Virus record (IMG/VR): IMGVR_UViG_3300029957_000006
Span: 60,455 to 124,454 of that record
Length of the DNA: 64,000 nt
Source of the DNA: a virus
Reading direction: 5' to 3' (one strand)
Below the pieces are notes generated by a model. It was not told the origin of the DNA. It was given only the letters and a program-made list of their open reading frames with translations, and did no database searches. Made by a program: the position numbers and the translations under genes. Shown in pieces: positions 46,639 through 53,404 of this stretch. Within the stretch, counting starts at the first letter, position 1. Each line of letters starts with the position of its first letter.

Positions 46639-47594
46639 GATTACTCAGTCATATAAGTTTGAATAGTATGAACACCAGTTTTAAGCTCAATCAAATCTGA
46701 TGTCTTAACATCATTATGTCCAGCTTCTTTAAGCAATTTCTTAGCTGAAACCTTATTAATTGCAATTACAATAATTTCTGTATCTGTAATTGCCCAAGGA
46801 TCAGTATTTTTGATCGTATAATGAAATGTTTTCATGATTGTTTATTAATGTACAAAGGTAGTAAAAAAAATTCATTAAACCAAACCTTTTTTCATACTAT
46901 CCAGATATGGCTTACATATATCAGCTGGACCTTCATTAAAAAAATTCATATTTGGTGTAATCGTTTTTATCGGTTCATCTCTGAAATTAACTTCTTTTTT
47001 TGGTAATGGTTTAGGTTCTTCTTTTTTATCCGAACCCTTAAGCATTTCTGGTCTGTTCTCTTGCACCCAAGCAAGATAAGATGGTTGATTATTCAACAAC
47101 CACCCAATTGTCTTACCAGCATGCTTACCACTCCTTAAAACAAATTCATTATTCATTTTATTCCTACCAATTCTTAGTTACATCATCAAAAAGGTTAGGA
47201 TTCTTTATGATCCAATTATAAAAAAGAGATTGCATTTCTGGTGGTACCATGTTTCCATTAATATATACCACATCAGTTACAATCTCAATTTCTTGATGAG
47301 CTGGAAGGGGCATTCCTTTACCTACTTCAGCAGCTTCTTTTAATCTATACACTCTATTTGTTATCATATTGCAAATATACTAATAAAATAATTCATTTGC
47401 AACTATTAAACAAAAAGAGCCCTATCAAGGACTCAAATTGTTATCAGCAAAGGGACCGATAATTATTAATACAAAGATACTACTTTTTTATTAATCTAGC
47501 AATTTTATTTTTCAAAGATGGTTAAGTTTTATTAAATTCCTATATGGAGTTATAAAATAAATAATCAAAATGGTGTCAAAACGCCATAGTAATA

Positions 47595-48416
47595 GTTGTG
47601 ATTCCCTTTTAGAAGAATAAAAAAAACGTCACAATAAGCAGAAAGATCAAGGTGGGTGTTGTGATTCCTTTATGGAATTATAGAATAATTAATTCATCTG
47701 TGATAAAAGCAGATGTATTACCATTGTGATTCCAATATGGATTAATATAATTACTAACTAGTCTTAATTGTCAAATTCAAATACTAGCATTGTGATTCCC
47801 TACGGAATAATATAATTACTAACAAATTACCCTTAGATTCATCAAATCGATTGTTGTGATTCCCCTACAGAACGATATAATTACCAACTTTTATTAATCT
47901 AGGAACTTGGATTAATCTGTTGTGATTCCTCTACGGAATGATATAATTATCAACTTTAACAACTGGAACTACAATTACAATTGGGTTGTGATTCCCCTAT
48001 GGAATGATATAATTATCAACTACTGTTAAGAACTAATTCAGAACTCTGAAGTTGTGATTCCCTTACGGAATAATATAATTACCAACTAGATTAGAGTGAG
48101 TGTCAAGGTAATCCTTGTTGTGATTCCCTTACGGAATAATATAATTACCAACTAAACCAATTGATGTATGGGAGGCTTATTAGTTGTGATTCCCTTACGG
48201 AATAATATAATTACCAACCTTTTTGTTTTAAACGTTGAATCGATTTGTGTTGTGATTCCCTTACGGAATAATATAATTACCAACTATTGGTTTCCATTTG
48301 TTGAGTGTTGCTAAGTTGTGATTCCCTTACGGAATAATATAATTACCAACAGCGTTTTGAAATAATTGCTTAAGCCTTTTGTTGTGATTCCCTTACGGAA
48401 TAATATAATTACCAAC
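47595..48416 (-). CRISPR. CRISPR array: about 13 repeats of 36 nt, 29-30 nt spacers
   Basis: Plus-strand repeat GTTGTGATTCCCTTACGGAATAATATAATTACCAAC, identical at 48051, 48117, 48183, 48249, 48315, 48381 and progressively degenerate toward 47595. Confidence 0.97.
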
Positions 48417-48494
48417 CTATCTCAAGTTAAATATTTGATATTAATTGATTTAGGTTATTTTATTAAAAATAATATGTCAAAGAACTTGTATAAA
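48417..48494 (-). promoter_or_regulatory. CRISPR leader with boxA-like element (48474-48486)
   Basis: AT-rich; adjacent to the undegenerate repeats; minus-strand AGTTCTTTGACAT. Confidence 0.6.
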
Positions 48495-49199
48495 TTAGTC
48501 TAGTTTATACAATTTATGATTTTCAGTTTTATATATTGTACCAAATCCAGAACCAGTTGATTGACCTATGCCAATATTATATAAAAGCTCGGCAACCTTC
48601 TTGTTTGTATAAATACTAATATGACACGAATTAGCAGAATTAATTACGTTTTTAACTAAAATTCGTTTAATTTTATGACTATCATTAATAGGTATTTTAA
48701 TTTCAAAATCTGTTAAATCTAAACTAGTATCGATCTTAGTTAATTTATTAATTAAATAATGTTTTATTTGATTCTCAAAATCAGTATCATTAAGGGTAAT
48801 AAAAGAATAGTTTTTCTTATCTATATATTTTTTTATTATAAATGGTGATAATGTAGCAAAATGATTCCATCCATTATTAAAATATTCATTAATATGATCA
48901 ACACCACAAAAAGTCATACCAGCCATTAATGATGGATTATTGATGACACCAATTAATATATTATTAATGAATTCATTATTTTTAGACGAAACAATAATAT
49001 ATCCACCATTATCAAAAGATAAATGTTTAGATTCTAAATTTAATTTACCACCATATAAATGAGAAATATTATAATCATTTTTAGCATCATGATAAATATT
49101 ATTTCTACCTAAACATTTATGAATATAAGAATTCAACATTGCTTGATTGCTTATTGGAATTTCACTAGTATTTTTTGAAAAATTTATTTTGATTCTCAT
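48495..49199 (-). CDS. cas6: Cas6 endoribonuclease (classical type, not Cas6f)
   Basis: TLSP, C-terminal GIGQSTGSGFG glycine loop; next to array. Confidence 0.9.
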   Translation of the reverse strand: MRIKINFSKNTSEIPISNQAMLNSYIHKCLGRNNIYHDAKNDYNISHLYGGKLNLESKHLSFDNGGYIIVSSKNNEFINNILIGVINNPSLMAGMTFCGVDHINEYFNNGWNHFATLSPFIIKKYIDKKNYSFITLNDTDFENQIKHYLINKLTKIDTSLDLTDFEIKIPINDSHKIKRILVKNVINSANSCHISIYTNKKVAELLYNIGIGQSTGSGFGTIYKTENHKLYKLD

Positions 49200-49200
49200 A

Positions 49201-50043
49201 TTATTGTTTTTCTAAACTTATTTCACTAACTCTTGTAAACCCTTCTGTTGTAATTATATTACCAGATTTAACACCTTTAATATAGATAAAACCATTATCA
49301 AGTATAGTAGCACAACCTTTATTGGTTTTAATTTTCTCTATATCTTTATCAGATACTGGAACAATTATTTGACCACTAAGTCTTATAATTTTATCTAAAC
49401 CTGTTAAAACTGTTAATTGTGTTCTATTGTTCATATTAATACTTGTATTAGTTGTTGTTTGCCCATAAATACTATCAAAAACGGGTGTTTTACCTTTTGA
49501 TTTCAACATTTTAAATAATTCATCAATACGCTTATCTGGTCTTGATAGAATCAATTCTTTAACCTTATTAAAAGATGTGATATTAATATCTATTTTATAA
49601 ACACTTGTTAATATATCAATGAACTCTTTATATAGTTCATCACCTAATAAATTATTTATACGTTTCCAATAAACAAATGATTGAGTACTCCAAGAATTTC
49701 CGATTGATTTTTTAGTTTGTATTGTTTCACTTTGAAAATTACCCTTACTATCCTTATAAGAATCAATTCTTAAATACGATTCTAAAGCTTTATTAAAGAG
49801 ATATGGTATGTTATTATATACTGTATCTCGATTAATTGGCTTAGGTCGTTCACCAAACAATACATGAAGCATATTTGATATTTGGTGAACAGTTATGGGT
49901 TCAATGAATTCAGTTTCAGTTTTACGGTCTCTCCTTCCACACATGTCAAACATTTTATCTTTGGTATTTCTATGTTTTCTGAATAACCCTGCATTTCTAA
50001 ATTCTAATACTAGAAATTTAGTCATTTGATTCGGTTGTGACAT
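49201..50043 (-). CDS. cas5: Cas5 (Cas5fv/I-F2-like)
   Basis: Position in operon; IT..QISNMLHVLFGE and SGQIIV...NGFIYIK resemble Cas5fv as recalled. Confidence 0.6.
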   Translation of the reverse strand: MSQPNQMTKFLVLEFRNAGLFRKHRNTKDKMFDMCGRRDRKTETEFIEPITVHQISNMLHVLFGERPKPINRDTVYNNIPYLFNKALESYLRIDSYKDSKGNFQSETIQTKKSIGNSWSTQSFVYWKRINNLLGDELYKEFIDILTSVYKIDINITSFNKVKELILSRPDKRIDELFKMLKSKGKTPVFDSIYGQTTTNTSINMNNRTQLTVLTGLDKIIRLSGQIIVPVSDKDIEKIKTNKGCATILDNGFIYIKGVKSGNIITTEGFTRVSEISLEKQ

Positions 50044-51106
50044 CAGTTTCGGTTTTAGATGATTTCGATTTCTTAATAGCTTCTTTCTTATCTGCCTTCT
50101 TTTTCTTACTTTCTAATTTACGAGACTCGTAATCAGCTTCAATCATCGCTCTTTTTTCCTTCGCCATTTCAGTATTTTCTTGAATATAAAAATCTTCAGT
50201 TTCAAATACGATGTTTGTTAAATCATTCCTATTAGAAATTCTAATCCAACCATCTTCATTAACAAAAGTATCCTCAAACACATCATAAACTATTTTATAT
50301 TCTAATTCTGATATTTCAACATAAGACCCCTTTCTTTTGATATTGAATTTCAATAGACGTTCAAATAATTCTCTAACAAGTATTTGAATATTATCATTAC
50401 TCATTTTAAATCCATATTCAGCTATTTCAACAAGACTATTTTTAATTTGATAGTAACCCAATTCACTGTCAAAGGATGGCATCTTAGCTTTTAAAAATTG
50501 TTTGTAGATATTAAACATATCAGGATTAAAAGAAAATCTATCAAAAATTTGATCACAACTAATAAATTGTAATTGCATCAAATCAATATTACCAATTGTT
50601 GCATATTCAATTTCACCGACAACTTCTTTTTTATAAAATGAATTATCTGTTTTCTCAGCATCGGTATTTTTAAAACCACTTCTTGAAAAGGTTTCAATTG
50701 AGCTTACAGCATTACATGTCTGTTCTGCATCTGTAATACATAAAACACCTTTTCGTTTGAGGGTTTCTGTTTCGTTAGCGAATAAATAGCCTCTGATAAT
50801 TGATGCTGGGGAAGCAATAAATGAATATAATAAATGTTCGTTATTAATAACGTTTGGTGATTGAAATAGAACATCTTCTTTGAATATATCGTGTCTAATA
50901 CAATCAGATGAAATACTAATTTTATATGATGTTTTATCACCATCTCTATAAAATTTCTTCTTAGCATAAGATGTATTATCATGCATTGTTTTCATATTTA
51001 CAAGATTTGTACCATTAAACATGAATTTCTGATCAGAACTATCAAAGTTAACAACTCCATTACCTTTTAATTTCATTCTGAATAATATGTTTTTAGCTTT
51101 TTTCAT
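50018..51106 (-). CDS. cas7: Cas7 (Cas7fv/I-F2-like)
   Basis: GNGVVNF, ISSDCIRHDIF, IIRGY, QLQFISCDQIFDR parallel Cas7fv motifs as recalled. Confidence 0.8.
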   Translation of the reverse strand: MKKAKNILFRMKLKGNGVVNFDSSDQKFMFNGTNLVNMKTMHDNTSYAKKKFYRDGDKTSYKISISSDCIRHDIFKEDVLFQSPNVINNEHLLYSFIASPASIIRGYLFANETETLKRKGVLCITDAEQTCNAVSSIETFSRSGFKNTDAEKTDNSFYKKEVVGEIEYATIGNIDLMQLQFISCDQIFDRFSFNPDMFNIYKQFLKAKMPSFDSELGYYQIKNSLVEIAEYGFKMSNDNIQILVRELFERLLKFNIKRKGSYVEISELEYKIVYDVFEDTFVNEDGWIRISNRNDLTNIVFETEDFYIQENTEMAKEKRAMIEADYESRKLESKKKKADKKEAIKKSKSSKTETDVTTESND

Positions 51107-51142
51107 TTTTTTGTATTTAAATTGTTATTTGTTTTAAATATA

Positions 51143-53404
51143 TTAATAATTTTTAAGTGTTGATAATCTTTCTGGTGAAATCTCCCCATAAATTGGATGA
51201 TATATTTTATCAAATCTAATATATGGTGTATTTGATTTTTTACCTAATTTTCTGATAATATCAAGCGTTGCATATTTTTTATTGGAGATAATTTCATTAT
51301 AATCGAAACGATCATCATTGGTGTCTCTGAGAATTTTCATTGTACCAATCATTCTTTTAAATGTTCCTTCATCTTCATGAAATTCTTCAGTAAAATTGTT
51401 TTCCCTAACACTGATACTAAATGGATTAGTAAATTTATCGCTATTGAAATACTTACAGATGACAAATACCTCAAAACTACTTGAACGTAATTTATTACCA
51501 CCAGCTGTCTTATTATCGCTTTTTCTAATATTAAAAAATTTAACTGGATAAATGAATTGAAGAGACTCTGAACTTGTATTATATTCATCACTTAAATATG
51601 CAAATAAGGTTTTTTCGTGATTCATCTCGAAATCATTGTAAATTATATATATTTCATCAAGGGTTAATTTCTGGTTATTAAATTTGGAAATATATTCAAA
51701 CCACGAATTGGATAAATTATTTGTGTACAACAAATCACGCATACTAGTTTCAGCTTTATTGACTAGTCTGACAATATTGATGGTAGATTCACCTAAATAA
51801 TCACCCCATCTGTCACATCTACCGATACGTTGTAATGAGCTTTGAGGAGATAACACAGATTCATATAAATTATTAAACGAAACATCTAAACTAGCTTGTA
51901 TAATATGTGTACCAACTACATTTGGTTTTATTATATTACGATCACTTTGTTTACCGTAAAAACGATATAATTGATTCACATTAAAATCTTTATCCAAGTC
52001 TTCAAATTTACTATGAAGAAGTAATCCAGCATCTAATGTACTTTTATGTATTTGGGCAGTACCAATGGAATTTAAGACAATTAAATTATTATCATCAATT
52101 TTGATCAATTTGATCTCAGATTCAGTTTTTAACAAATATTTCTTATTATGAGGTGCTGAATAATGTTTACCAATACTTGGCAAAATTAATGTTTTCTGTA
52201 ATTGAGAATCCCATAAACGATACATGTGAGTTCCAGTTGCTGATAATAATAACGTATTGCTATTGGTAAGAGTATTTCTTGTTTTCATTATATTAATAAA
52301 ACAAGCAAATAAAGCTGTGTCACCAACTAATTCATGATATTCATCAAATACAACATCTGCATTGATAATGGTATATAGACGACTACCATGTCTATTATCC
52401 ACACTAGGTGATAAATAATTATCAATATTTGTAACAATAATGTCTGATGAGAAATCACTTTCGAATAATGGGTTACAAGCTTTAACTTCGCCTCCAGTAT
52501 ATAATTCAACTGATAGATAATCAATACCAAAATTATCTATTTCTTCTAGAATTGATTTGTAAACTGATTCAGCAACTATATTTCTAGGACAAACCCAGAT
52601 TAATTTTCTATTAGTCTTAAAATTCCATAATAATCCAAGAATTGTTTTACCAAATCCAGCTGGTGCATTAATTTGCGTTGTTCTTTCAACATTAAGAACA
52701 ATGTTTTCTTGTTGATTGAAGCGGTCATTACCATAAAATTTGTGTTTAGTAATATCAATATCACAACATCTTATATTGGCGTTTTTAATCATTTCTTCAA
52801 TTTCAATATCGCTTATATCAAGATTATCAATACTAGATGCTAATCTATCAGCAGATATTAAACAAGTTCTGGTTAACAAACGAAAAGAATTTATTTCATC
52901 TGCTTCATCACCTGTTACATAATATTTAGGTGCTTTTTTAGGTTTATATTCCTTTTCATGAACGTGTAATTCACCAACAATACTAATTAAATAATTTAAC
53001 ATTATTTTAGTATCTGATTCAGATATTTTTACATCAGTGTCATTATAACCACATAATTTATTAGAAATTCCATGATGCCAATATACACTATCAAGAATTA
53101 TAGATAATTGTTTTTTTGGTAAATCTAAATATCTGCTTAAAAATGCCCAACCAACTTCATTATGACGATATTTTAATTTTGCTTCTAAATTATTTTCATC
53201 AATATTTATAATACCTAATTTTTTTTGGAATTGAGAAGTGCATTTCCCAATATCATGTAATAATCCTGATAATCTGATAGTTTCAATTAATTCATCATCT
53301 TTAACCAATAAAGATTGATTTGCTATTTCAACAGCAAATCTTGAAACTAAAAGCGAATGATCAACTAAGGTTATTCCATTAGTTTTTGCTAGTATTTGAC
53401 CCAT
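51143..53404 (-). CDS. cas3: Cas3 HD nuclease-helicase (no Cas2 fusion)
   Basis: DHS, LHDIGK, HHG, SAD; APAGFGKT, DEYH, SAT, QRIGRCDR. Confidence 0.93.
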   Translation of the reverse strand: MGQILAKTNGITLVDHSLLVSRFAVEIANQSLLVKDDELIETIRLSGLLHDIGKCTSQFQKKLGIINIDENNLEAKLKYRHNEVGWAFLSRYLDLPKKQLSIILDSVYWHHGISNKLCGYNDTDVKISESDTKIMLNYLISIVGELHVHEKEYKPKKAPKYYVTGDEADEINSFRLLTRTCLISADRLASSIDNLDISDIEIEEMIKNANIRCCDIDITKHKFYGNDRFNQQENIVLNVERTTQINAPAGFGKTILGLLWNFKTNRKLIWVCPRNIVAESVYKSILEEIDNFGIDYLSVELYTGGEVKACNPLFESDFSSDIIVTNIDNYLSPSVDNRHGSRLYTIINADVVFDEYHELVGDTALFACFINIMKTRNTLTNSNTLLLSATGTHMYRLWDSQLQKTLILPSIGKHYSAPHNKKYLLKTESEIKLIKIDDNNLIVLNSIGTAQIHKSTLDAGLLLHSKFEDLDKDFNVNQLYRFYGKQSDRNIIKPNVVGTHIIQASLDVSFNNLYESVLSPQSSLQRIGRCDRWGDYLGESTINIVRLVNKAETSMRDLLYTNNLSNSWFEYISKFNNQKLTLDEIYIIYNDFEMNHEKTLFAYLSDEYNTSSESLQFIYPVKFFNIRKSDNKTAGGNKLRSSSFEVFVICKYFNSDKFTNPFSISVRENNFTEEFHEDEGTFKRMIGTMKILRDTNDDRFDYNEIISNKKYATLDIIRKLGKKSNTPYIRFDKIYHPIYGEISPERLSTLKNY

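What the first reader, a model, noticed from the sequence alone, without database searches (positions are those of the whole stretch)
48495..53404. Minimal chimeric type I CRISPR-Cas: Cas3 + Cas7fv/Cas5fv-like + classical Cas6, no Cas8
Seen: a four-gene operon of about 4.9 kb with intact HD and helicase motifs and no large subunit, small subunit or adaptation genes. Known: I-F2 (I-Fv) lacks Cas8 but uses a Cas2-Cas3 fusion and Cas6f. Here Cas3 starts directly with the HD domain and Cas6 has the classical glycine loop. The Cas7fv/Cas5fv resemblance is from recalled motifs. Inference: a distinct compact phage variant for inter-phage competition, of possible tool interest.
Basis: partly seen in the sequence, partly recalled or inferred. 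Interest (0 to 1): 0.82.

Follow-up and report, generated by a model that had tools for sequence, protein, structure and literature searches.

The report
Huge-phage Cas8-less CRISPR-Cas3 module
A fragment of a very large bacteriophage carries an intact four-gene, DNA-targeting CRISPR system with no large subunit and no spacer-capture genes; it is a rebuilt relative of type I-F2, the smallest known type I system, and its newest spacer exactly matches the integrase gene of another mobile element found in the same community.

Summary
Window 48495-53404 (minus strand) holds four intact, tightly packed genes: cas3 (753 aa, HD domain from residue 13, no Cas2 part), a Cas7fv-type backbone protein (362 aa), a Cas5 with an inserted helical domain (280 aa, no sequence family) and a classical Cas6 (234 aa). 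A 13-repeat CRISPR array follows (36-nt repeats, 30-nt spacers).

Cas3, Cas7 and Cas5 are each closest to the type I-F2 (I-Fv) proteins among solved structures. Cas6, repeat geometry, the unfused Cas3 and the missing cas1 all fail I-F2's defining features.

The same module recurs on 24 non-redundant loci, mostly huge-phage contigs. No other gene is conserved beside it, and no Cas1, Cas2 or Cas8f match was found in 16 viral records (7 at least 90% complete). The Cas6/repeat module is swapped within the family (classical Cas6 17, Cas6e-like 6).

The newest spacer matches 30 of 30 bases in a tyrosine-integrase gene on a metagenome contig, beside a 5'-CC, the I-F-type PAM. That element occurs with the phage in one sequencing run.

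Verdict: a new variant of a known kind. I found no published name, but Al-Shayeb 2022 was not held. This scan has already reported the family on other genomes.

The parts
51143..53404 (-). cas3: stand-alone HD nuclease plus SF2 helicase, 753 aa, no Cas2 domain
   Evidence: Pfam HD, Cas3_HD, DEAD and Cas3-like_C. TIGR01596 at 66 bits, above the 43.45 cut-off. Best solved relative is the I-F2 Cas3 9g44_A at E 2.1e-33; the next are at 0.16-0.55. HD and helicase motifs are intact in that alignment.
50018..51106 (-). cas7: Cas7fv-type backbone subunit, 362 aa, with an extra Lys-rich C-terminal helix (about residues 312-349)
   Evidence: NF040577 at E 5e-27 but 95 bits, under the 200 cut-off. 5o6u_C at E 6e-18. 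Model pLDDT 80. VIA Z 21.1, 21.0 and 20.2 to Cas7fv chains over model residues 1-310; next best 12.1. Tail sequence.
49201..50043 (-). cas5: Cas5 RAMP with an inserted helical domain (about residues 126-204), 280 aa. Alignment A2 suggests the real start is Met7 (50025).
   Evidence: No Pfam, NCBIfam or PDB sequence hit. Model pLDDT 85. Foldseek top hits 9g44_B and 5o6u_F, probability 1.00 and 0.99. VIA Z 7.5 and 7.2, then chains whose sizes fit Cas5e at about 6.4. Predicted to bind Cas7: 0.88 against a best control of 0.00.
48495..49199 (-). cas6: classical Cas6 endoribonuclease, 234 aa, with a C-terminal glycine loop
   Evidence: TIGR01877 at 75.4 bits, above the 58.65 cut-off; PF01881 at E 1e-11. 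PDB Cas6 5yi6_A at 3e-6. Glycine loop. No Cas6f or Cas6e family was returned for it.
48417..48494 (-). putative leader between the cas6 stop codon and the first repeat (78 nt, A+T-rich)
   Evidence: Sequence read. Identical repeats abut it and decayed repeats lie at the far end. The leader function is inferred.
47595..48416 (-). CRISPR array: 13 repeats of 36 nt (GTTGGTAATTATATTATTCCGTAAGGGAATCACAAC on the minus strand) and 12 spacers of 30 nt (27-29 nt at the old end). The first 6 repeats are identical; the later ones carry 4-10 changes. A further decayed repeat may lie near 47530-47565.
   Evidence: A 5-bp hairpin ahead of the conserved 3' end pairs in 87% of cells across 14 family repeats, with one compensatory pair in 5 sequences.
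48351..48380 (-). spacer S01 (leader-proximal, newest) with an exact protospacer elsewhere
   Evidence: 30 of 30 match at L042:1480-1509, with 5' flank ...TTCC, inside integrase gene L042:836-2092. Contigs carrying that protospacer and its flanks occur in run X5 alongside a phage array contig.
47417..47434 (-). terminator-like hairpin with a T-run just after the array
   Evidence: Consensus scan: 7-bp stem, 4 G-C pairs, then TTTTTGTTT. Five such sites were found against 1.2 expected from shuffles. Pattern match only.

Best explanation
This is a complete, interference-only, Cas8-less type I CRISPR-Cas module carried by a huge phage. It is a rebuilt relative of type I-F2.

Proposed mechanism:
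1. The operon and array are transcribed together on the minus strand.
2. Classical Cas6 cuts each 36-nt repeat at the base of its 3' hairpin. This gives crRNAs with an approximately 8-nt 5' handle (...ATCACAAC), a 30-nt guide and a 3' hairpin.
3. One Cas5, about five or six Cas7 and one Cas6 assemble on the crRNA.
4. The helical insertion of Cas5 reads a 5'-CC PAM (GG on the target strand) and opens the duplex, standing in for Cas8. The Cas7 backbone, perhaps with its Lys-rich C-terminal helix, guides the displaced strand in place of Cas11.
5. Cas7 and Cas5 dock the stand-alone HD-helicase Cas3, which shreds the target DNA.

The phage uses the module against other mobile elements in the same host. 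Its newest spacer targets an integrase gene of an integrative element. New spacers must come from machinery the phage does not encode.

Shown here: gene content, folds, family recurrence, absence of adaptation and large-subunit genes, one exact target with a CC flank, and spacer turnover in near-identical relatives. Inferred by analogy with I-F2: every biochemical step.
For: Gene and protein identity:
-.
- The Cas7 model gives Z 21.1 (rmsd 2.5, 230 aligned) to Cas7fv 5o6u_C, against 12.1 for the next family.
- The Cas5 model's only two Foldseek hits at E<=0.001 are 9g44_B and 5o6u_F. They are also top in VIA, at Z 7.5 and 7.2.
- Cas7 with Cas5: the model supports binding with score 0.88, best of 3 controls 0.00. 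Runs agree in at least 62% of contacts and partner pLDDT is at least 72. The mark was reached by 58 of 80 solved complexes and 2 of 110 mismatched pairs. Because I-F2 Cascade is solved, this pass may reflect likeness to it.

Conservation:
- Across 24 non-redundant loci (29 rows), the only shared genes are Cas7 in 24, Cas5 in 24, Cas3 in 22 and classical Cas6 in 17, with Cas6e-like in 6 others.
- The two loci without Cas3 and the one without Cas6 end at contig edges.
- Arrays adjoin 24 of the 28 fetched loci.

Absent components:
- Cas1 in 0 of 1 own record and 0 of 15 related records; Cas2 in 0 of 16; Csy1/Cas8f in 0 of 16. Seven of these records are at least 90% complete.

Target:
- S01 matches 30 of 30 with a 5'-CC flank in a tyrosine integrase gene (PF00589 plus PF13102). 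An HTH_17 excisionase-like gene and a resolvase lie on the same contig.
- The spacer has the sense of the integrase gene's coding strand, so the crRNA could pair with the template DNA strand but not with that gene's mRNA.
- The target's flanks appear in run X5 (contigs of 1162 and 5420 nt, depth 16 and 14) together with a phage array contig at depth 40.

Spacer turnover:
- L012/13, L014/15 and L021 have near-identical cas genes. They share distal spacers but differ at the leader end: spacers 1-3 against 25-27 against 35 and 27.

Mechanistic precedent:
- PMC12956352 (abstract, passages and Discussion read): in I-F2, Cas5 alone senses a GG PAM and Cas7 recruits Cas3.
Against: - No expression or activity data exist. 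No RNA run was listed, which says nothing either way.
- The PAM rests on a single protospacer.
- Only S01 was searched in the metagenome contigs. Of the 12 spacers, 11 had no firm match in what was searched: the own record and fetched loci, the phage collection and 22 related records. S10 gave only a weak 25 of 29.
- The Cas5 match is middling: Z 7.5, within about 1 of Cas5e-sized chains, with only about 130 of 280 residues aligned. 'Cas5fv-like' rather than generic Cas5 therefore rests on rank and the helical insert.
- The Cas7 score is under NCBIfam's Cas7fv cut-off (95 against 200 bits).
- The own record is only 35% complete. Cas1 or a large subunit elsewhere in this particular phage cannot be excluded; that absence leans on relatives.
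- Seven of 13 repeats are decayed.
Confidence: 0.8

Rival explanations
1. The module is incomplete on its own. It borrows a large subunit, a small subunit or another factor from a host CRISPR-Cas system, so interference needs the host.
For: The phage lacks adaptation genes and must already rely on something external for new spacers. The Cas5 helical insert (about 80 aa) looks smaller than the rest of the 336-aa Cas5fv chain. No biochemical data exist.
Against: I-F2 works with exactly this subunit set (PMC12956352). The same four genes and nothing else are conserved across 24 loci from very different phages. Cas7, Cas5 and Cas3 are far from the common host subtypes, so a cognate host Cas8 is unlikely. 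No Csy1 match was found in 0 of 16 records.
Confidence: 0.08
2. The system binds targets but mainly silences or marks them, or it is a decaying remnant, rather than degrading DNA.
For: Seven of 13 repeats are degenerate. No targets were found for 11 spacers. Other minimal phage, plasmid and transposon systems act without cleavage (reviewed in PMC11656645; passages read).
Against: Cas3 keeps its HD and helicase motifs and is present in 22 of 24 loci, the other two being cut by contig ends. All four ORFs are full length compared with relatives. The six leader-proximal repeats are identical, and the newest spacer has a perfect target.
Confidence: 0.06
3. The locus is bacterial (a defence island or a mis-binned host contig), not phage-borne.
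For: Three relatives sit in MAG bins labelled Bacteroidota or Smithella. Two related records are classed as provirus.
Against: The window lies in an IMG/VR virus record. The window around it holds PHROG matches to phage-type DNA ligase, RNA ligase, NAMPT, QueC and polymerase. Relatives include 310-420 kb records with direct terminal repeats at 100% completeness. The three MAG contigs are only 10-44 kb.
Confidence: 0.03

Closest known systems
Type I-F2 (formerly I-Fv) CRISPR-Cas, e.g. Shewanella putrefaciens CN-32 (PDB 5O6U, 5O7H, 9G44; PMC4937334 seen as search listing and abstract only; PMC12956352)
   Same: No Cas8 and no Cas11. Cascade is built from Cas5, Cas7 and Cas6 only. The backbone has the Cas7fv fold (Z 21). 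Cas5 carries an extra helical domain. Cas3 is closest to the I-F2 Cas3 (E 2e-33). The one protospacer has the CC/GG-type PAM.
   Different: Cas3 is not fused to Cas2 and is shorter (753 aa against an 882-aa Cas2-truncated chain). Cas6 is the classical TIGR01877 type, not Cas6f. Repeats are 36 nt and spacers 30 nt, against 27-28 and 32. There is no cas1. Cas7 has an added Lys-rich C-terminal helix and scores under the Cas7fv equivalog cut-off. Cas5 is shorter (280 against about 336 aa) with no sequence-level match. The carrier is a huge phage, not a plasmid or genomic island.
Vibrio phage ICP1 type I-F system (PMC10161043; outline and abstract read)
   Same: A phage-encoded type I-F-lineage system with Cas3, aimed at a mobile element resident in the host. 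Here the one known target is an integrase gene of an integrative element.
   Different: According to that abstract, ICP1 has a Csy complex (its Fig. 1 legend names Csy1) and a Cas2/3 fusion. That ICP1 also encodes Cas1 is my recollection, not a passage I read. The present system has no Cas8f, no Cas2 part and no Cas1. ICP1 is a phage of ordinary size.
Type I-C variant of huge phages (Al-Shayeb et al. 2020, PMC7162821; passages read)
   Same: A huge-phage-borne type I variant lacking Cas1 and Cas2.
   Different: That variant lacks Cas6, uses a Cas5d-like protein and has another helicase in place of Cas3. This one has Cas6, a true HD-Cas3 and Cas7fv/Cas5fv-type subunits.

Membership tests
Type I CRISPR-Cas | Cas3 HD-nuclease/SF2-helicase signature gene next to Cas5/Cas7 Cascade genes and a CRISPR array | tested here: met
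Type I-F2 (I-Fv) | No large subunit (Cas8) and no small subunit (Cas11) | tested here: met
   No further conserved gene across 24 loci. Csy1 in 0 of 16 records. Only Cas8f was searched by profile; other Cas8 types were tested only through the absence of any conserved neighbour.
Type I-F2 (I-Fv) | Cas7fv-type backbone protein | tested here: inconclusive
   The fold is clearly Cas7fv (Z 21.1 against 12.1 for the next family) and the sequence hit is significant (E 5e-27). But 95 bits is under the NF040577 equivalog cut-off of 200.
Type I-F2 (I-Fv) | Cas5fv with a helical (AH) domain that reads the PAM | tested here: inconclusive
   The top structural matches are the 331- and 336-aa chains of 9G44 and 5O6U. 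That these are Cas5 is inferred from their length and from 'Cas5 lysine 335' in PMC12956352. A helical insert is present. Z is only 7.5 and no sequence family matches.
Type I-F2 (I-Fv) | Cas6f (Csy4-type) endoribonuclease | tested here: not met
   The protein reaches TIGR01877 and PF01881 (classical Cas6). No Cas6f family was returned at E<=0.1.
Type I-F2 (I-Fv) | Cas2-Cas3 fusion | tested here: not met
   The HD domain starts at residue 13. TIGR02562 scores 14.7 bits against a 566 cut-off. Cas2 profile in 0 of 16 records.
Type I-F2 (I-Fv) | Cas1 adaptation gene in the locus | tested here: not met
   0 of 1 own record and 0 of 15 related records. The own record is only 35% complete.
Type I-F2 (I-Fv) | 27-28-nt repeats with 32-nt spacers | tested here: not met
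   36-nt repeats and 30-nt spacers here and in the classical-Cas6 loci. The I-F2 figures come from PMC12956352.
Type I-F2 (I-Fv) | GG (5'-CC on the non-target strand) PAM | tested here: inconclusive
   One protospacer, flanked by 5'-...TTCC. n = 1.

The most novel reading that the evidence does not exclude
This is a separate, phage-specific lineage of type I at variant or subtype level. A Cas8-less Cas7fv/Cas5fv/Cas3 core accepts interchangeable crRNA-processing modules: classical Cas6 with 36-nt repeats, or Cas6e-like with 28-nt repeats.

Its arrays keep gaining leader-end spacers although no complete genome encodes Cas1 or Cas2. Adaptation would then be done in trans by host machinery, possibly machinery that serves arrays of the same 36/30 geometry, or by an unrecognised phage integrase.

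The phage would use the module, as ICP1 does, to destroy a host-resident integrative element.
Probability: 0.3. Interest if true: 0.8.

Novelty: new variant of a known kind. Interest (0 to 1): 0.6.

Why it matters
- It shows that the Cas8-less solution of I-F2 is not a rarity of a few proteobacterial plasmids. A Cas7 profile finds 592 clusters at 50% identity, 366 of them at E<=1e-30. The 25 viral loci fetched here are mostly from very large phages.
- The Cas6-plus-repeat module can be exchanged without changing the core. That bears on how Cascade recognises the crRNA 5' handle and on engineering.
- At 1,629 aa in 4.9 kb including Cas3, the system is very compact for a long-range DNA-degrading editor.
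- Spacer turnover without cas1/cas2, and a target in an integrative element found in the same community, make two questions testable: how a phage array acquires spacers, and whether phages other than ICP1 use CRISPR against host-resident elements.

Tried and rejected
Genomic context came from the search for related loci instead.
- The operon against 50,697 phage records gave no match in distant blastn.
- The array against the same collection gave only E about 0.8 noise.
- Spacers against the own 124-kb record and the fetched loci gave only self hits.
- S01 as an exact pattern in IMG/VR gave 0 hits. The first spacers of L012, L009 and L014 in IMG/VR hit only their own arrays.
- The array against 22 related records gave almost only repeat-to-repeat matches. 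One possible protospacer, S10 with 25 of 29 in G006 at the end of a 311-aa ORF (phrog_10141, unknown function), has E 7.8e-5 per genome. I treat it as weak.
- Host-repeat mimicry: the pattern GTTG-N20-22-GGNAATCACAAC was run on 401 sampled genomes of the phylum of L027's MAG. Twelve genomes had hits, none with array-like spacing. It was not found in those searched, which is not proof of absence.
- PF28157, the precomputed tag on all 120 listed Cas7 homologues, is not in the local Pfam copy, so its name is unknown to me.
- The 184-aa protein of L020, L024 and L025 had no PDB sequence hit. The Atlas points to Cas6e (0.94, 30 of 30 hits PF08798), which is a lead only.
- The Cas7 tree shows Cas6 type clustered (4 changes against a shuffled mean of 6.7). 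The backbone is unresolved (13 of 21 forks open), so I claim no order of swaps.
- No RNA holder was listed among 21 runs.
- Contigs laid from 4 of the 21 runs were too fragmented across the array to show array variants.
- No tRNA gene was found on L042.
- Sigma-70-type promoter matches were not above shuffles (71 against 57.2 +/- 7.5), so I name no promoter.
- Papers: Al-Shayeb et al. 2022 (Cell) was not held and may describe this family. Supplements and figures were not visible, including Extended Data Fig. 1 of PMC12669027, which shows an 'I-F variant intermediate between I-F1 and I-F2'.
- Searches that found no description of this family.
- I recalled that some class 2 repeats of Bacteroidota resemble this repeat.

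Full report
**What is there.** On the minus strand of the window lie four ORFs at exactly the stated coordinates. They are 51143-53404 (753 aa), 50018-51106 (362 aa), 49201-50043 (280 aa) and 48495-49199 (234 aa). They are separated by 36 nt, a 26-nt overlap and 1 nt. A 78-nt A+T-rich stretch follows, then a CRISPR array at 48416-47595. A terminator-like hairpin lies at 47434-47417. The region is the most A+T-rich of the window, at 26-27% G+C.

**The four proteins.**
- Cas3 has HD (14-115), Cas3_HD (27-192), DEAD (238-391) and Cas3 C-terminal (441-532) domains. It passes TIGR01596. The HD domain starts at the N-terminus, so no Cas2 part can be present.
- Among all solved structures Cas3 matches only the I-F2 Cas3 of PDB 9G44 strongly (E 2.1e-33). 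I-E and I-C Cas3 reach only E 0.16-0.55. That alignment shows the HD motifs and helicase motifs I, II (DEYH), III (SAT) and VI intact.
- The 362-aa protein hits NCBIfam cas_Cas7fv (E 5e-27, but 95 bits against a cut-off of 200) and PDB Cas7fv (E 6e-18).
- Its AlphaFold model (pLDDT 80) aligns to the three Cas7fv entries at Z 21.1, 21.0 and 20.2. The next family, Cas7 of I-C and I-E, reaches about 12. Residues 312-349 form an extra Lys-rich helix beyond the Cas7fv match.
- The 280-aa protein has no Pfam, NCBIfam or PDB sequence match. Its model was built from 22 homologues (pLDDT 85).
- That model has only two Foldseek hits at E<=0.001, the 331- and 336-aa chains of 9G44 and 5O6U. They also lead the VIA list at Z 7.5 and 7.2, ahead of chains whose sizes fit Cas5e and other Cas5 subunits at Z 5-6.4. 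The tool does not name chains. I assign these two to Cas5 by their length and by 'Cas5 lysine 335' in PMC12956352.
- The model is a RAMP core with a helical insert at about 126-204. A Z under 8 is middling, so 'a Cas5' is firm and 'Cas5fv-like' is probable.
- A complex prediction of Cas7 with this protein supports binding. The score is 0.88 and the best of 3 controls is 0.00. Runs agree in at least 62% of contacts, and partner pLDDT is at least 72. The mark was reached by 58 of 80 solved and 2 of 110 mismatched pairs. Since I-F2 Cascade is solved, the pass may reflect likeness to it.
- Cas6 passes TIGR01877 (75.4 against 58.65 bits) and PF01881. It matches archaeal Cas6 structures and ends in a glycine loop. 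No Cas6f or Cas6e family was returned for it.

**The array.**
- There are thirteen 36-nt repeats and twelve spacers of 30 nt, shortening to 27-29 nt at the old end.
- The six repeats next to cas6 are identical. The rest carry 4-10 changes. This places the leader at the cas6 side and transcription on the cas strand.
- Across 14 family members the last 11-12 nt of the repeat (GGAATCACAAC) are nearly invariant, while the 5' half drifts.
- A 5-bp hairpin just before that tail pairs in 87% of cells, with one compensatory pair in 5 sequences. This is what a Cas6 substrate with an approximately 8-nt 5' handle should look like.

**Carrier.**
- The window is part of a 124,454-bp IMG/VR virus record judged 35% complete, which implies a genome of roughly 350 kb.
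- Elsewhere in the window, PHROG matches include phage-type DNA ligase, RNA ligase, NAMPT, QueC and polymerase.

**A family, not a one-off.**
- The Cas7 has 179 homologues at E<=0.001 in the 90% clusters. A profile search finds 592 clusters at 50% identity, 366 of them at E<=1e-30.
- I fetched 25 IMG/VR loci, many on contigs of 280-597 kb, and 3 MAG loci. After merging near-duplicates there are 24 loci including the window.
- Clustering all ORFs within +/-8 kb shows only four conserved genes: Cas7 in 24, Cas5 in 24, Cas3 in 22 and classical Cas6 in 17. The loci lacking Cas3 or Cas6 are cut by contig ends.
- Three loci have a Cas6e (PF08798, TIGR01907). Three more have a 184-aa protein that the Atlas places with Cas6e. 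Two of these three (L020, L024) have 28-nt hairpin repeats with spacers of about 32 nt.
- So Cas6 and repeat type change together while the core stays. Gene order also varies: 3-7-5-6-array, 7-5-6-array-3 and 6-7-5-array-3.
- On a Cas7 tree the Cas6 type is clustered, but the backbone is unresolved.

**No adaptation and no large subunit.**
- Cas1 was found in 0 of 1 own record and 0 of 15 related records. Cas2 was found in 0 of 16 and Csy1 in 0 of 16. Seven of these records are at least 90% complete, and positive controls responded.
- Yet arrays turn over. L012/13, L014/15 and L021 have near-identical cas genes and share distal spacers. They carry different leader-end spacers: 1-3 against 25-27 against 35 and 27.
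- Acquisition therefore goes on somewhere, by means the phages do not visibly encode.

**Target and PAM.**
- The newest spacer, S01, has one exact 30 of 30 match in the metagenome contig collection, at L042:1480-1509. The two sequences share nothing else.
- The flank 5' of the protospacer, on the strand identical to the spacer, ends in CC. This is the I-F-type PAM; 'GG-PAM' is the wording of PMC12956352.
- The site lies inside a 418-aa tyrosine integrase gene (PF00589 plus PF13102, phrog_1). An HTH_17 excisionase-like gene follows it and a resolvase lies on the same contig.
- Of the 29 phage records that this integrase matches (all under 60% identity; 22-26% in the eight listed rows), 17 are named after the Bacteroidota genera Porphyromonas, Bacteroides or Phocaeicola and 11 are unnamed 'Bacteriophage sp.'.
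- The spacer has the sense of the gene's coding strand, so it can pair with the template DNA strand but not with that gene's mRNA.
- In run X5, contigs of 1162 and 5420 nt (depth 16 and 14) match the window only at S01 and continue into exactly L042's flanks. A phage array contig sits at depth 40 in the same run. Phage and target therefore share a community.
- I found no firm target for the other 11 spacers.

**Mechanism.**
By analogy with I-F2 (PMC12956352), Cas6 processes the repeats, and Cas5, Cas7 and Cas6 assemble on the crRNA. The Cas5 insert reads CC and wedges the duplex open. The Cas7 backbone guides the non-target strand and docks Cas3, which degrades the DNA. All of these steps are inferred. 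What is shown is the parts list, their folds, their conservation, one PAM-flanked target and spacer turnover.

**Classification and novelty.**
- The system meets the I-F2 hallmark of having no Cas8 or Cas11. It shares the lineage of Cas7, Cas5 and Cas3.
- It fails four defining features that I tested: Cas6f, the Cas2-Cas3 fusion, cas1, and the 28/32 array geometry. It also sits under the Cas7fv equivalog cut-off. It is therefore a new variant related to I-F2, not a member.
- I found no description in eight full-text searches. I also found none in the passages read of PMC12669027, PMC10910872, PMC7162821 and PMC11656645.
- Al-Shayeb et al. 2022 was not held, and no supplements or figures could be seen.
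- Earlier notes of this scan report the same family on at least 10 other genomes with the same reading. These are AI notes, not independent evidence.

**Limits.**
- There are no RNA or activity data.
- The PAM rests on n = 1.
- The own record is incomplete.
- The Cas5 assignment to the fv type is moderate.

Noticed in passing
window 47724-48409, + strand: Each repeat, read on the strand opposite to the cas genes, holds a TTGTGA-N16-TATAAT promoter-like match (10 of 12), in 10 copies. The -10-like part does not look conserved in the repeats of other family members (judged by eye), so it may be chance in A+T-rich DNA.
   Followed up: partly
L012, L013, L014, L015, L021 (arrays from about 10717): Near-identical phages share distal spacers but differ in leader-end spacers and in internal blocks. 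This is polarised gain plus internal loss in a family without cas1.
   Followed up: partly
G005 (record of L016), about 595658-596542: The 597-kb phage has a second array of the same repeat type about 30 kb from the cas-linked one.
   Followed up: no
L030 (G006:256500-260000), locus 1626-1654: Window spacer S10 matches 25 of 29 bases at the end of a 311-aa ORF (phrog_10141, unknown function) in a related 389-kb phage record. The match is weak.
   Followed up: partly
L034-L036 (G264, G168, G360): A 37-nt sequence ending ...GGTAATCACAAC recurs at or near contig ends in three sampled genomes of the phylum searched, four times in one of them. It is not in CRISPR-like spacing and may be the end of a mobile element.
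   Followed up: no
This is an auxiliary-metabolism and repair gene set, as expected of a very large phage.
   Followed up: no
L007 5051-5538: In this relative the array lies upstream of cas3 rather than after cas6.
   Followed up: no
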